64,000 bases of DNA from Harriotta raleighana (lineage: Eukaryota), in NCBI GenBank assembly GCA_050575255.1, contig JBNZDD010013719.1, positions 9,072,866 through 9,136,865 of the forward strand. Reading direction: 5' to 3'. A program made the position numbers. Below, piece by piece: positions 12,001 to 18,000 of this stretch; position 1 is the stretch's first letter, and the number at the start of each line of letters is the position of its first letter.

Positions 12001-15000
12001 TTCCAAGCAACACATTGGAATACAAGTGAAAGAAATTAATAACAATAATACTCTTTGCATTTGATATAGCGCTTTTCATGTCTTCTAGACGTCTCAAAGT
12101 GCTTCACAGAATATACTGTAGTTAATTAACTATATTTGTGGGTGAAACGTGGCAGCCAATTGTGCACAGCAGTGTCCCACAAACGGTCATAGCTTGAGAG
12201 ATCCAATTTTTTTTGAGGGATTATTATTAGGTGTGTGAGTAAGGAAACTTGTCGAAAGTTATGCTCTATCTGGAATCAAACCCCATGTCTCTCGCTTGCA
12301 AAGTGAGTGCTCTAACCACTGATCTACAGAACTCCACTTGGTATGATCCTGTTATTATTCACTGCGGGTTTGACACAGAGACATTCTCAGATTAACCACA
12401 AATCATCAGCAGTTGGTGGTTAACATTACTATAAGTTAAACTATTAAGCCATTTGTTGAAGGTTATCTTGATATTCCATGAAGGAAAATAATAATCAGTT
12501 AAAATAAATGCTAGACTCTTTTAAATGAGTATGTATCATCACTCCCTTGTGATGATTTCTATTTCTGGTTCCAAAAAACTTACATGGGAGTCAGCTTGGC
12601 TGAGTTGGTACCAGTGTTTCTTCTGAGTCAGAATGTTGTGAGTTCAAATCACATGTTTGGACTCTTAACTCTAAGCTGAAGTTCCCGATGCAGTACTGAA
12701 GCAGATGTATTGACAGAGGTACATCCTTCACATGAGACATTAAACAGAAGGGCTGTCTCTGCATGTTCAGGAGAACATTGAAAATCATGTGGCACTGTTC
12801 AAAGACAAATTTGACTTGCAAAATACAACAACAACAAAATTGCACTTATAAACCGCCTTTCACGTGGGGAGGACGTCCCAAAGTGCTGAACAGTCAGGTC
12901 AGGACCCGAGCGGGTGCAGGGGCGTTTGGGTTAGGGGGAAGAGTTAGTGGAGGCGGCCGAAGGCGTGATCGAAGAGGAAGGTCTTGAGACTTGCCTTGAA
13001 GGAGGAAAGGGAGGAAGCAAGGCGGAGGGGCTGTGGGATGGAGTTCCACAATGTGGGAGCAGAGAGGTTGAAAGCCCGGCCACCGAAGGTTGGGCGATTA
13101 GGGCGGTGGACACTGAGCAGGCCTGAGTCTGCTGAACGGAGGGTGCGGGCAGGCTGATAGGGAGACAGCGGATAAGAGAGATAGGCGGGGGCAAGACCAT
13201 TCATGGCCTTGAAGGTGAGAACGAGGATCTGGAATTCGATCTTCTGGGAGATGGGGAGCCAGTGAAGATGGGCGAGGGCAGGAGTTATGTGGTCACGGAG
13301 CCTAGTGCGGGAGAGTATACAAGCTGCAGAATTCTGAATGTTCTGCAGCCTGTGAAGGGAGGAGTTGGGAAGGCCGATGAGGAGAGTTCCCATAGTCAAG
13401 CTTAGATGTGACGAAGGCATGTATAAGTGTTTTGGTGGCGTGAGGTGTGAGGTAGTGACGGAGTCTGGTAATATTGCGGAGGTGGTGGAAAGCTCTACTG
13501 GTCTTGGAGCGGATAAGAGGGAGGAAGGACTGTTCGGGGTCAAACAAGAGCCCAGATTCTTGATTTCGAGAGGTGGAGAGAGCAGCCTTGAATGCTGATA
13601 TTATCAGAGCCTGAGGTGTGGAGGCGCTGACCCGAGCCAATCAGAAGGGCCTCCATGTGGAGCTCCTGTGGCTCAGTGGTAAGAGCACTTGCCTTATATG
13701 CCTTATAAGCATGAGACCTGTGTTCGAATCCAGGCAGATCAGGGCAAAACCTTGGGCAAGTTTCCTTACTCCACATGCCTAATAATAATCCCTCCCAAAA
13801 AAACCGCAATAATAAAATTGGTCATTTCAATCCTTGACTGTTTGTGGGACACTGCTGTGCGCAATTGGCTGCCGCGTTCCGCCCACAAATATACAGTCAA
13901 TTCACAACAGTGTATTCTGTGAAGCGCTTTGGGACGTTGATAAGATGTGAAAAGCGCTATATCAAATGCAAGGATTATTGTTATTATTATTATTATTATT
14001 ATCTTGTTAATGTTGAGATGGAGGAAGTTGGCCCTCGTTCAGGACTCAATGTCGGTCAAACATGCAGTCAGAATGCCAGTAGTCCTGAAGTCGAGGGTGG
14101 ACGCGGAAAGGTGGAGTTGGGTGTCATCCGCATACATGTGGAAATTTACACCATGTCTGCGGATGATGTCGCCTAGGGGGAGCATATAGAGGGTGAAGAG
14201 CAGGGGGCCAAGGACAAAATACACACTACATTTCATGGTGAAACAATGTGAAGAGCTTTGAAATGGTCTTTGGATATGAGCTTTTAGCTGGTAATTTATC
14301 TTAGTGCTATTATTTAGCATTTTAGATGTATATACACAAGAGTTATGGATTTAGATGGTTCTAAATGTGTATCCAGCGCCTTGGAACGTACTCCTGACAT
14401 GAAAGGCGCTCTATAAATGCAATTTTGTTGTTGTTGTATTTTAGATGTAGTCCTCCATCTGAGCTAGAGCAATTCTTTTTGTAGAATTGTTAACCAGAAC
14501 ACTAGCAGAACTCCTTTCTCTTTTCAAATAGTTCCATAGGAGCTTTAATGCCTTTTATCTTTAAGGACAACGACTATTTAGACTGTTCAAACCACAGAAA
14601 TTTGCAGCACAGAAGGTCATTTGGCCCACAAGTGTGTGTATTGGGGAAGGGGGGAATATCCAAATCTTATTGCAAAAACTGAAACGCAGAGCAATCGAGA
14701 TAAACACTGGGGGTTTACCCGTTTGACCAATTTTTAGTGTGAAATTCTTAATACATCGAAATAACGCGCCTCACTACAGTACTGGCTTATCTCACTGCAC
14801 ATACGGGGTTAGGTGTTGAATTACTATAAACAAGGTTGCTATATAGTTGAACAGGTAAAGCTTTTATTTTCACTGTCATAACAATGCAGTTGTGAGATTG
14901 TGCAAAATATTCTCTTGCAAAATATCGAGCGTTGTCAGGGTGTGTGCAAACGGGTGAGTGAGTGAATGCATACCGCGGATCAGGTTCTTCCTTTTATGTT

Positions 15001-18000
15001 CTGTTGTTGGTGGGGGTGGGGAGAGGAGGAGGGCGTATAGTGATTAATGTTGGATGTTATAAACATCGCAGAAATTACTTTTACTTTCGAAACTATTTCA
15101 AACCAAGCTGTACGCCGATGCAGCAGCAGGAGTGGATTGGGATTTAAATGCGAACCCGTCTTAATCCTTGGAATTCTCACAGAACAAGGCTGGTACTGTT
15201 AAATGAGAAACACCCAGCCTATTGTCCGCTCCCCATTCACACATATTGCTTCTGCTGTTGGTTAAGTGCGTTAATTTTTAAATTCCCAGTTCTGCACTCA
15301 TTACAAATTCCAGTTAAACTCCACCTTTTGGGTAAACAGTAACCAAATGGTTCTATTTATTTTACCGTCTGACGTACCCAGTGAGATATATGGCTCCACA
15401 TTCATATTAATGTGGGGGGAGAAAAACAAGCAATTTCCCCATTCCACTTCAAAACATATTACCCCCAACTTTTTTCGTGCAAATTATTCAATTAATCGTG
15501 TTAGTTAGTAGTGTGAACCCAACTACAAATTGCACAACAGGAAACTGAGTTGGAGGGAAGTTGCATAACCCCATTCTCATACTTTTCAATCAATGCACTT
15601 TCATGGAACTCCTCCCCCTCCCCCCTTCCTTTATTTTCAAATCGAGCTGTTTGAGGATTTGCTATTTCCTCATTAGTCCCACGCTTATACACTATGTGTC
15701 TTATAAATTAGGTACAGAACATTTTAGGGAGATGGAGGAAATGTGATCAGTGTTTGCTTAGGAGGACGATTTATGTTTTATATGTCGACTATCGCTTTTT
15801 TTTAATGAGTTTAAATCGACGAATGCAGAGGTCTCGTGATTAATGGATGTGTGCCAGGGCGCTGGAGTTCTCCGAAAACAGATGGGTTGCTTCAGTTGCG
15901 CATAAGCAGAGATTGGTCGGGAAAAGAGGAAAAAAAAATGTGGGCTCAGTCTGTTAAGTGACACGGCGCAGAAGCAAAGCGTTAGGGAGTTGCGACATTC
16001 AGAGAAGAACTGAAATAGATCGGGCCCCGCGTCACGGGGCGGGATTGGTGCCTTTGGTGGAAAGCTGCAGTTAAGAGGCTTCCTCAGGGAGCACAGGGGA
16101 GGCGGGGAAGAAAGATAGCATCGCCAAGGCACTGACAACATCCACACAGCGGGTGCATGTGGATTGCACACTGTAACTGACGCGCAGACGATACTTTTCC
16201 ATTATCATTTACACCTGCATTGTTATGACAGTGAAAATAAAAGCTTTACCCGTTCAACTATTAGCAACCTTGTTTATAGTAATTCAACACCTAACCCTGT
16301 ATGTGCAGTGAGATAAGCCAGTACTGTAGTGAGGCGCGTTATTTCGATCACGGCGTGCGATTGAAATTTGATAGGAACTGGTTGTGGAATCTTGTATTTT
16401 TAATAGGAGGCTATCCCTCTCCCTCCCTCCCCCTCCCCACCCGTGTTGTACATTGTTGAAATATTTGCTCTGAATTCACTACGAAAGCAATTTTGCTCAT
16501 TCAGCACTGACTGGTCCGAATGCAGGTTTAAGCGTGGATTGTGTTAAGATTACAACTGTCCTTCCCATTGTTCGAACCGAGCGACCCCCGCATCACTAAC
16601 CATGGCCAACGAACCTTTAATAATACTGAATCCGAGTCCATCATGTGTAGCAAGGATTTTTTTGGGAGGGGAAAGTGGGGTGAGTTACCGAGCAAGTTAC
16701 CGAGATCAGCAAAAAAACAAATGTACCTGTTGACGTCGCCAAGCGCGCCGCTGGAAGTCATTTCAAAAATACGTTTTTTTCCTCCAGCCATGGAAACGCG
16801 TTGCATTTAACACAGTCGCTTAATAATGGTGCATCAGTAAAAGCCGGATATCATAAGAGACCTGAAGAAGGGGAAGAGATGTGGCTTTTAAGATGTTTAG
16901 GTGTACTATACAGATGTAACATTGGGCGGAGGAGGTGGGGGGGGGCTAGAGAGAAAGATGAAGAGTGGGGAGGGGAAAAATATAGTTTTGAAGATAACTA
17001 TTGTAAAATAATGTAAGGATTCTATAAATCTTGGTGTATGTCGCTCACATGTATGCATTCAATTCACAGTAAATTTATTCTGCAAAGCGCTTTGAGACAG
17101 TGAAAAGCGCTATATCAAAATGCAAGGATGATGATGATTATTTATTATTGTGTGGCACAGCCAACAGTGGAGGGTGGGAGGCGGTGTCGCTTTAAGATGA
17201 TTGTTGGTGTGTATCGCACACATGTAACATTGAAGAGGGGGGCGGTGGGGAGAGGAATGCGGCGGCGCGCATGCGCGGTAATCTGGCACTGTGTTCAGTG
17301 GCGCGGGTGACGTCACGGGCGGAGGAGCGCTGGTCGGCGGTGAAGCTGCTCAGAGCCTCCGAGAGAGAGAGAGAGGGAGAGAGAGACCGAGCCCGGGGAG
17401 CTACACCAACCACAAGCCGTGCCACCCTCACATAGCATAGCACAACACAACCACAGGCCTGCCCGTGCTCCCTCCTGTATCACAGAGCGAGGAACCACAC
17501 CGAGAGAGAGAGGAGAGAGATCGCAGCCTCGCTCTGTTCTTGTGCTGGGCTGTTACTCTCTTTTTGCGCCATGTCTTCTGCACAAGTGTCTTCCTCTAGG
17601 AGACAGTCGTGCTACCTCTGTGATCTGCCCCGCATGCCGTGGGCTATGATCTGGGATTTTACCGAGCCCGTGTGCAGGGGATGTGTCAACTACGAAGGTG
17701 CCGATCGCATCGAATTCGTCATCGAGACGGCCCGGCAGTTGAAAAGGGCTCATGGCTTCCAGGATGGGAGATCCCCCGGTCCGCCGCCTGTCAAAGTTCA
17801 GTCTATGGCTGCAGGTAAAGAGACTGCTCAACTCAACCACGTTGACGGCTCGTCCAAACCGTCCCAGACGGTTCTCGACCGCTACTCCCTGGCCACGGAG
17901 AGACCTCGGTTCGAGTACCCAGGCATCACCCACGCTGGTAGGCTTCCCAACGGGTTGAATGGACCCAATGGATTCCCCAAACCCGAGGACATTCCTCCTG

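What the first reader, a model, noticed from the sequence alone, without database searches (positions are those of the whole stretch)
14755..16348. Near-perfect 135 bp inverted repeat enclosing a 1.3 kb promoter-like segment upstream of IRF2BPL
Seen: the arms differ by only 2 substitutions and 1 indel, match no other repeat I saw in the window, have no evident TSD and enclose no transposase ORF. The right arm ends about 1.2 kb upstream of the ATG. Inference: (a) a recent inversion made by staggered breaks, leaving inverted duplications; (b) a potentially flippable regulatory cassette; (c) a non-autonomous DNA transposon with long TIRs; or (d) a local misassembly. Option (a) or (b) would reorient regulatory DNA of a dosage-sensitive neurodevelopmental gene.
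Basis: partly seen in the sequence, partly recalled or inferred. Interest (0 to 1): 0.65.

Follow-up and report, generated by a model that had tools for sequence, protein, structure and literature searches.

The report
Inverted repeat pair upstream of IRF2BPL
Two almost identical 139-base copies of one sequence face each other across 1.3 kb of unique DNA just upstream of a fish IRF2BPL gene; this is most likely the scar of a recent local DNA rearrangement, or else a small transposon, and nothing shows that it regulates the gene.

Summary
The inverted repeat is real. The arms are 14755-14893 and 16211-16348: 139 columns, 3 substitutions and 1 indel (97.1% identity). They enclose 1317 bp and end 1223 bp before the ATG of a single-exon IRF2BPL ORF.

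Chance does not explain it. The longest exact inverted match is 50 nt, against a mean of 12.4 and a maximum of 20 in 200 shuffles.

Arms and spacer occur nowhere else in the 64 kb. There is no target-site duplication, no transposase or other coding remnant, no DIRS-type internal complementary region and no RNA-family match. Both edges of the repeat are sharp.

The element has unusually well-preserved CpG (o/e 0.73), like the DNA between it and the gene (0.80). The window median is 0.33.

My best reading (0.45) is one recent local event that made an inverted copy of 139 bp of unique upstream DNA. This was either an inversion with a one-sided breakpoint duplication or a templated inverted insertion that left the spacer's orientation unchanged.

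A low-copy non-autonomous transposon with long terminal repeats is a close rival (0.35). The deciding tests are genome-wide copy number and orthologous loci, and no eukaryotic DNA collection was available for either. A flip switch and a misassembly are both unlikely. Interest is modest.

The parts
14755..14893 (.). Left arm of the inverted repeat (139 nt)
   Evidence: It has 4 CpG and CpG o/e 0.79. On its own it has no notable fold (z 0.97 and 0.55).
14894..16210 (.). Spacer: 1317 bp of non-coding DNA, unique in the window
   Evidence: No other copy in the window. 0 Pfam hits in 21 ORFs. 0 hits for the 146-aa ORF. No Rfam match at E<=1. No internal complementary region. CpG o/e 0.72, GC 0.437.
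16211..16348 (.). Right arm of the inverted repeat (138 nt, reverse complement of the left arm)
   Evidence: CpG o/e 0.76.
15900..16199 (.). The GC-richer, CpG-rich right end of the spacer, with a GC box (16037, +) and a CCAAT (16048, -). This is the only part that is 'promoter-like' by composition.
   Evidence: No transcription data were available.
14685..17100 (.). CpG-preserved, low-GC domain that contains the whole element and runs on into the gene's CpG island
   Evidence: CpG o/e is 0.76 for 14600-16800. It is 0.34 for the left flank 14450-14754 and 0.80 for the right flank 16349-17040. None of 278 background 1594-bp windows reaches the element's 0.73 (median 0.33, maximum 0.62). The start near 14685 is read from the sequence.
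17571..19541 (+). IRF2BPL coding sequence: one uninterrupted ORF of 656 aa
   Evidence: ORF. (PF11261, PF25457 and PF25454, E 4e-35 to 7e-86). (named best hits are all IRF2BPL).
17100..19400 (.). Main CpG island over the presumed core promoter and the coding sequence
   Evidence: GC 0.5-0.71, CpG o/e mostly 0.66-1.11, lowest 0.47.

Best explanation
A single recent local rearrangement made an inverted second copy of a 139-bp stretch of unique DNA upstream of IRF2BPL and placed it 1.3 kb from the original.

Two routes give exactly this picture. In the first, two breaks occur, one of them staggered; fill-in and end joining then invert the 1.3-kb segment and leave the staggered stretch duplicated in inverted orientation at both ends. 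This is the Drosophila 'staggered-break' model and corresponds to the 'dupINV' class of human complex variants. In the second, a replication or repair template switch copies 139 bp from the opposite strand and inserts it 1.3 kb away, leaving the spacer in its old orientation.

Shown: the repeat, its uniqueness in the window, its sharp edges and the lack of a TSD. Inferred: that it arose by local duplication, and that it is recent.

I take it to be a passive scar. If transcribed, the arms would pair into a long stem. In principle they allow rare recombination that would flip the spacer. Nothing indicates that either is used.
For: 1. No TSD at any trimming of the ends, although the arms are still 97.1% alike. 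An insertion that recent should still show its TSD. According to the passages of PMC8969392 seen, each DNA-transposon family generally has a TSD of characteristic length.

2. Arms and spacer are absent from the other 62 kb, where SINE and LINE copies abound.

3. Both edges are sharp. The outer flanks show no complementarity above shuffles. The inner flanks show at most a marginal one (22 of 500 shuffles reach it at 60 bp, 77 of 500 at 100 bp). That is what one duplication event gives.

4. There is no coding remnant and no subterminal repeat array. No transposase domain was found in 85 of the window's 103 ORFs of 85 aa or more; the only mobile-element domain found was reverse transcriptase.

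5. In composition the element matches the unique DNA on its gene side: CpG o/e 0.73 vs 0.80 and GC 0.428 vs 0.439. Of the window's 14 C-rich or G-rich tracts, 4 lie in 15012-16442, three in the spacer and one 63 bp beyond the right arm. This suggests that spacer and flank are the same kind of local DNA.

6. The size fits. Ranz et al. 2007 (PMC1885836, passages) report inverted duplications at 17 of 29 inversion breakpoints, with median 321 bp and shortest 46 bp, one-sided in 12 cases. Collins et al. 2017 (PMC5338099, passages) list dupINV/INVdup as recognised classes.

7. Chalopin et al. 2015 (PMC4350176, passages) found the one chondrichthyan genome they studied 'particularly poor in DNA transposons'.

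8. Two of the three substitutions are CpG/CpA differences, one in each arm. That pattern fits two initially identical copies that have only begun to decay.
Against: The decisive measurements could not be made: copy number of the arm in the whole genome, and the state of the orthologous locus in relatives.

Absence from 62 kb says little about a family with hundreds of copies in a genome of gigabases.

A transposon whose TSD is a self-complementary AT or TCGA would hide it inside the repeat.

The published breakpoint duplications I read about flank chromosome-scale inversions, not 1.3-kb ones.

Substitutions are concentrated at CpG (2 of 10 CpG columns vs 1 of 128 other columns, Fisher p = 0.014). 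This hints that the arms are methylated in the germ line. High CpG content would then fit a young arrival from elsewhere better than old resident DNA.

The elephant-shark result on DNA transposons may not hold for the species of this window, which is not identified.
Confidence: 0.45

Rival explanations
1. It is a low-copy, non-autonomous DNA transposon of 1594 bp with 139-bp terminal inverted repeats, inserted into the open, CpG-rich region upstream of IRF2BPL.
For: Long near-identical terminal inverted repeats around a short non-coding core are the standard look of such elements. The high CpG content of a possibly methylated sequence fits a young copy; a SINE copy nearby (13656-13990), likely from a younger subfamily, is also CpG-rich. 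The outermost AT or the TCGA could be a hidden self-complementary TSD. From my own knowledge, many DNA transposons prefer to insert near gene 5' ends.
Against: No TSD longer than 2 nt is present although the arms are only 2.9% apart. There is no second copy or fragment in 62 kb. No transposase remnant was found in the element, nor in the 85 of the window's 103 ORFs of 85 aa or more that were scanned. There are no subterminal repeat arrays. DNA transposons were scarce in the chondrichthyan genome examined by PMC4350176. I recall no superfamily with an AT or TCGA target duplication, but that is recall only; no repeat library such as Dfam or Repbase was available.
Confidence: 0.35
2. It is an assembly artefact: only one arm exists and the second was created when reads or contigs were joined.
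For: The same window holds a perfect 1042-bp tandem duplicate on either side of a single N (52836-53877 and 53879-54920, 100% identical). That looks like an unresolved join, so this assembly is not free of such problems.
Against: The arms differ at 3 substitutions and 1 indel that is not in a homopolymer. They are separated by 1317 bp of unique sequence with no N nearby; the nearest N runs are at 5312-5321 and 40108. Artefactual duplicates are normally identical, as the one at 53 kb is.
Confidence: 0.06
3. It is a working invertible cassette: recombination between the arms flips the CpG-rich 1.3-kb segment and changes IRF2BPL regulation, in the germ line as a polymorphism or in somatic cells.
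For: The geometry permits it, since inverted arms flank a segment with a GC box and a CCAAT 1.2 kb from the gene. Inversions between inverted repeats recur in primates (PMC3961182, passages).
Against: Those recurrent cases involve what the paper calls large IRs; the one example in the passages I saw is 7-kb inverted duplications. Here the longest perfect identity is 50 nt. No recombinase domain was found among the 85 scanned ORFs of the window. Only one orientation can be seen in one assembly. From my own knowledge, no site-specific promoter inversion system is known in vertebrates.
Confidence: 0.03
4. The arms are two independent insertions of the same short interspersed repeat in opposite orientations.
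For: This is how most inverted pairs in vertebrate genomes arise. The window has an example, the SINE copies 11616-11942 (-) and 13656-13990 (+), 92% identical.
Against: The arm has no tRNA-like head, no tail and no terminal repeats of its own (sequence). It has no other copy in a window that holds dozens of SINE copies. Neither arm has flanking direct repeats of its own (read).
Confidence: 0.03

Closest known systems
Inverted duplications at inversion breakpoints (staggered-break model, Ranz et al. 2007, PMC1885836); 'dupINV/INVdup' complex structural variants (Collins et al. 2017, PMC5338099)
   Same: An inverted copy of otherwise unique sequence at the two ends of a segment. No TSD. Duplication on one side only. 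The arm length lies within the reported 46 bp to 1.9 kb.
   Different: The published cases I read span large chromosomal segments, whereas here the segment is 1.3 kb. That the segment is actually inverted is not shown here.
Replication template-switch products (papers seen only as listing and abstracts: PMC5453318, PMC7954356, PMC10766183; PMC8755829 as abstract)
   Same: A nearby sequence is copied from the opposite strand, making an inverted repeat without a TSD.
   Different: The PMC8755829 abstract concerns microinversions of 17 to 33 nucleotides. A 139-nt copy placed 1.3 kb away would be an unusually long and distant one. No clear microhomology is seen at the junctions, at most 3 nt at the inner one (read).
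Non-autonomous cut-and-paste DNA transposons with long terminal inverted repeats
   Same: Near-identical terminal inverted repeats, a short non-coding core, and a location near the 5' end of a gene.
   Different: No TSD, no other copy in the window, and no transposase-derived sequence.
DIRS1-like tyrosine-recombinase retrotransposons (PMC3266345, PMC8969392)
   Same: Inverted terminal repeats and no TSD.
   Different: No internal complementary region matching the termini. No RT or recombinase remnant. At 1.6 kb it is shorter than a full element, which carries three ORFs (PMC3266345); the size of several kb for full elements is recalled.

Membership tests
Cut-and-paste DNA transposon (non-autonomous, TIR class) | Terminal inverted repeats | tested here: met
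   139-nt arms, 97.1% identical.
Cut-and-paste DNA transposon (non-autonomous, TIR class) | Target-site duplication of family-specific length directly outside the repeats | tested here: not met
   No direct repeat longer than 2 nt with 0-11 bases trimmed from the ends, except a self-complementary TCGA inside the repeat. No 5-12-nt near-match with one mismatch at trim offsets from -5 to +12.
Cut-and-paste DNA transposon (non-autonomous, TIR class) | Several copies in the genome with unrelated flanks | not testable with these tools
   Only the 64-kb window is available, and it has no second copy. No eukaryotic genome collection was on hand. A protein-level proxy search found nothing, not even the query itself, so it had little power.
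Cut-and-paste DNA transposon (non-autonomous, TIR class) | Sequence relation to an autonomous, transposase-coding partner | tested here: not met
   0 Pfam hits in 21 ORFs of the element. 0 hits for the 146-aa ORF. No transposase domain in 85 ORFs of the window. A partner elsewhere in the genome cannot be excluded.
DIRS1-like retrotransposon | Inverted terminal repeats and no TSD | tested here: met
DIRS1-like retrotransposon | Internal complementary region matching the start of the left repeat and the end of the right repeat (PMC3266345, PMC8969392) | tested here: not met
   The terminal 30 and 50 nt of the arm, in both senses, match the spacer no better than shuffles do (52 to 294 of 300 shuffles reach the observed score).
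DIRS1-like retrotransposon | Reverse transcriptase or tyrosine recombinase coding sequence or remnant | tested here: not met
Inversion with breakpoint duplication (staggered breaks / dupINV) | Inverted copies of otherwise single-copy sequence at both ends of the segment, without TSD | tested here: met
   'Single-copy' was tested in the window only.
Inversion with breakpoint duplication (staggered breaks / dupINV) | The segment is reversed relative to the ancestral arrangement, as seen in an outgroup or another haplotype | not testable with these tools
   No orthologous DNA could be fetched.
SINE or other short retroposon pair | Pol III head, tail and own TSDs on each copy | tested here: not met
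   No tRNA-like match in the arms. No tail (sequence). By contrast the window's SINEs have a tRNA-like head and an (ATT)n tail.
Site-specific invertible switch | A recombinase encoded nearby, and both orientations present in a population | tested here: not met
   No recombinase domain among 85 ORFs. The second part cannot be tested with one sequence.
CpG-island promoter (the 'promoter-like' label) | GC>=0.5 with CpG o/e>=0.6 over several hundred bp, and a transcription start | tested here: inconclusive
   Only two overlapping 200-bp windows (15900-16199) pass. The whole element has high CpG o/e (0.73) at low GC (0.43). There are no transcript data.

The most novel reading that the evidence does not exclude
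The pair of arms is kept because it lets the CpG-rich 1.3-kb upstream module of IRF2BPL flip by recombination. Both orientations would then coexist in the species, or in different cells, with different expression of a dosage-sensitive neurodevelopmental regulator. That would be a natural invertible cis-regulatory cassette in a vertebrate.
Probability: 0.03. Interest if true: 0.75.

Novelty: new member of a known kind. Interest (0 to 1): 0.25.

Why it matters
IRF2BPL is a conserved intronless gene. In people its variants cause a severe neurodevelopmental disorder, and as EAP1 it is tied to the timing of puberty (abstracts of PMC11709191, PMC13066210 and PMC6452208 in the listing).

A rearrangement 1.2 kb from its start, inside the CpG-preserved domain that runs into its promoter, could have changed how the gene is controlled in this lineage.

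If the spacer was inverted, the locus would be a clean, datable, small-scale vertebrate example of the breakpoint-duplication mechanism described for large Drosophila inversions. If it is a transposon, it is an ordinary insertion. Either way, present evidence shows a structural scar and no function.

Tried and rejected
1. Copy-number proxy. I searched the 68-aa ORF that overlaps the left arm against the 5.8-billion-protein set. No candidate came back, not even the query itself, so the test had little power.

2. The spacer's 146-aa ORF against 1.84 billion representative proteins gave 0 hits. It is not a coding remnant of anything known.

3. A 24-base stretch of the arm terminus against the bacterial and archaeal genome collection gave 0 matches. 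This only rules out a prokaryotic origin or contamination.

4. Rfam found nothing in the element (13000-18000 at E<=1; whole window at gathering score). The only matches are tRNA-like SINE heads at 13666-13737 and 28611-28671. ARAGORN found 0 tRNA genes.

5. I asked whether the repeat continues inward at lower identity, which would point to a transposon with imperfect subterminal repeats. The result is marginal at 60 bp (22 of 500 shuffles) and not significant at 100-250 bp. It is inconclusive.

6. A Tc1-like reading, in which the element starts at the internal 'TA CAGT...' 20 nt inside the arm (motif recalled from memory), is rejected. The 20 nt outside that point are also perfectly inverted, which flanking DNA would not be.

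7. DIRS-like reading: no internal complementary region.

8. I looked for an older repeat split by the rearrangement, which could have shown an inversion or an empty site. The 300 bp to the left and 690 bp to the right of the element, and the spacer itself, match no repeat in the window.

9. The arm as a structured RNA or DNA on its own: no (z 0.97 and 0.55).

Not done. No eukaryotic genome or repeat library was available. Supplements were closed, so Table S5 of PMC1885836, with the individual duplication sizes, was not seen. No spliced gene model was needed, because the gene is one exon.

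
Full report
**The observation.** The repeat finder reports two adjoining inverted pairs, 14755-14841/16262-16348 (87 nt, 99%) and 14843-14893/16211-16261 (51 nt, 96%). blastn joins them into one 139-column match at 97.1% with one gap, and the alignment shows the same.

A global alignment lists the differences: G/A at 14805, a one-base indel at 14842, A/G at 14853 and T/G at 14890. The longest perfect run is 50 nt. The longest exact inverted match in 200 shuffles of 13500-17800 averaged 12.4 nt, with a maximum of 20, so chance is excluded.

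The spacer is 1317 bp. The right arm ends 1223 bp before the ATG of a 656-codon uninterrupted ORF at 17571-19541. That ORF carries the three IRF-2BP1/2 domains. Its best named relatives are all annotated IRF2BPL: catshark 84%, coelacanth 78%, many ray-finned fishes 70-78%. One unnamed contig protein is 99% identical; I did not use it beyond the listing. The species is not identified. A cartilaginous fish is plausible but not shown.

**What surrounds it.** The DNA to the left is mobile-element debris.
- A LINE remnant lies on the minus strand. Its C-terminal ORF is at 12944-13420, and a weak reverse-transcriptase match is at 14042-14350.
- A tRNA-headed SINE at 13656-13990 interrupts that remnant.
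- Further SINE copies lie upstream.
- From about 14450 to 17040 nothing matches any other part of the window. A SINE fragment sits at 17042-17149.
- The main CpG island runs from 17100 to 19400.

**What the element lacks.**
- No second copy or fragment of arm or spacer in the remaining 62 kb, by blastn with word 9 or by nhmmer --max.
- No target-site duplication. With 0 to 11 bases trimmed from each end, the longest direct repeat is 2 nt, apart from a self-complementary TCGA inside the repeat. No 5-12-nt near-repeat with one mismatch turned up at trim offsets from -5 to +12.
- No coding remnant. 21 of the 32 stop-to-stop ORFs of 35 aa or more gave no Pfam match at E<=1. The longest ORF, 146 aa, has no relative among 1.84 billion representative proteins.
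- No subterminal repeat arrays.
- No internal complementary region of the DIRS type.
- No RNA-family match and no tRNA.
- No fold of the arm on its own.

Both edges of the repeat are sharp. The outer flanks are not complementary. The inner flanks show only a marginal trace: 22 of 500 shuffles reach it at 60 bp, 77 of 500 at 100 bp.

**What it has.** The element has unusually well-preserved CpG. Its o/e is 0.73 at GC 0.43, and none of 278 background windows of the same length reaches that (median 0.33, maximum 0.62).
- The unique DNA between the right arm and the SINE fragment has the same character (0.80 at GC 0.44), as does the gene's island (0.83).
- The 305 bp to the left of the element are at background level (0.34). 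Reading the sequence, however, CpGs already become dense about 70 bp before the left arm.
- Four of the window's 14 C-rich or G-rich tracts lie in 15012-16442, three in the spacer and one just outside the right arm.
- One GC box at 16037 sits beside a CCAAT on the other strand at 16048, inside the only stretch that passes the usual island thresholds, 15900-16199.

So 'promoter-like' is fair for the right end of the spacer by composition. Nothing shows a transcription start there.

**How it most likely arose.** A cut-and-paste transposon inserted recently enough for its ends to be 97% alike should still carry its target-site duplication. Such duplications are a regular and family-specific feature (PMC8969392, passages). 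DIRS1-like elements combine inverted terminal repeats with no duplication, but they need an internal complementary region (PMC3266345 and PMC8969392, passages), and there is none here.

A local duplication explains every feature without special pleading. Ranz et al. (PMC1885836, passages) found inverted duplications of non-repetitive sequence at the breakpoints of 17 of 29 Drosophila inversions. The median was 321 bp and the shortest 46 bp, and only one breakpoint was duplicated in 12 cases. They explained them by staggered breaks, fill-in and end joining. Human surveys recognise the same shape as dupINV/INVdup (PMC5338099, passages).

A replication template switch that copies the opposite strand gives the same repeat without inverting the spacer. 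I saw those papers only as listing and abstracts. With one sequence I cannot tell the two routes apart, so I cannot say whether the spacer was reoriented.

Two of the three substitutions are CpG/CpA differences, one in each arm (2 of 10 CpG columns vs 1 of 128 others, p = 0.014). That is the first decay expected of two initially identical copies. It puts the event in the recent evolutionary past, but I have no rate for this species and give no date.

**The main rival.** A low-copy non-autonomous transposon with long terminal repeats remains a serious possibility.
- Absence from 62 kb is weak evidence in a large genome.
- A self-complementary AT or TCGA duplication would be invisible.
- The CpG-biased substitutions hint that the arms are methylated. 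In that case high CpG content suits a young newcomer better than old resident DNA.

Against it stand the missing duplication, the lack of any transposase-related sequence in the element and in the 85 of the window's 103 longer ORFs that were scanned, the compositional match with the gene-side flank, and the scarcity of DNA transposons in the one chondrichthyan genome analysed in PMC4350176 (passages). I put the local duplication at 0.45 and the transposon at 0.35.

**Lesser rivals.**
- A misassembly is unlikely (0.06). The arms differ at four places and the spacer is unique, whereas the one likely artefact in the window, a 1042-bp tandem duplicate around a single N, is 100% identical.
- Two independent insertions of one short repeat are unlikely (0.03), because the arm has no retroposon or MITE anatomy.
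- A working flip switch is the boldest reading (0.03). The geometry allows it, and inverted-repeat-mediated inversions recur in primates (PMC3961182, passages). Those, however, use what the paper calls large IRs, whereas here the longest perfect identity is 50 nt. No recombinase domain was found in the window. From my own knowledge, homologous recombination in vertebrate cells falls off steeply at such lengths.

**What it does.** Probably nothing by design. If the region is transcribed, the arms pair almost completely: 136 of 139 bases in the minimum-energy fold of the whole element, with an arm-arm duplex energy of -240 kcal/mol under RNA parameters. That would make a long double-stranded stem. 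There is no evidence of transcription.

**Limits.** No eukaryotic genome, read set or repeat library was available.

Noticed in passing
window 52836-53877 and 53879-54920: Two 1042-bp stretches are 100% identical, in tandem, and separated only by the single N at 53878. This looks like an unresolved assembly join or a very recent tandem duplication. The N was left as it is.
   Followed up: partly
window 11616-11942 (-) and 13656-13990 (+): A second inverted pair lies 1.7 kb apart: two full-length tRNA-headed SINE copies with (ATT)n tails, 92% identical, while most other long repeat pairs (100 bp or more) in the window are about 70-81% identical. Their flanks differ, so they look like two separate insertions of a younger subfamily.
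   Followed up: partly
window 14685-19450: A 4.7-kb domain with preserved CpG (o/e 0.72-0.83) has an upstream 2.4 kb of only about 43% GC. It resembles an unmethylated island of low GC content reaching far upstream of IRF2BPL.
   Followed up: partly
window 14805 and 14853: Two of the three substitutions between the arms are CpG/CpA differences, one in each arm (p = 0.014 against other columns). This suggests CpG hypermutation, hence methylation, in a region whose overall CpG content suggests the opposite.
   Followed up: partly
window 5011-5823 and 46783-47676: Two LINE 3' portions are 91-95% identical in direct orientation. The first is interrupted by the N run 5312-5321. The second follows reverse-transcriptase ORFs at 46181-47007.
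   Followed up: no
window 14894-14950 and 16155-16210: There is a faint residual complementarity just inside the two arms (score 17; 22 of 500 shuffles reach it at 60 bp). The left inner flank also has a short local duplication of 'GCAAAATAT' (read).
   Followed up: partly
window 17571-19541: The IRF2BPL protein here is 656 aa. It is 84% identical to the catshark protein and 99% identical to a 659-aa protein from an unnamed 2.3-kb contig. That source was not traced.
   Followed up: no
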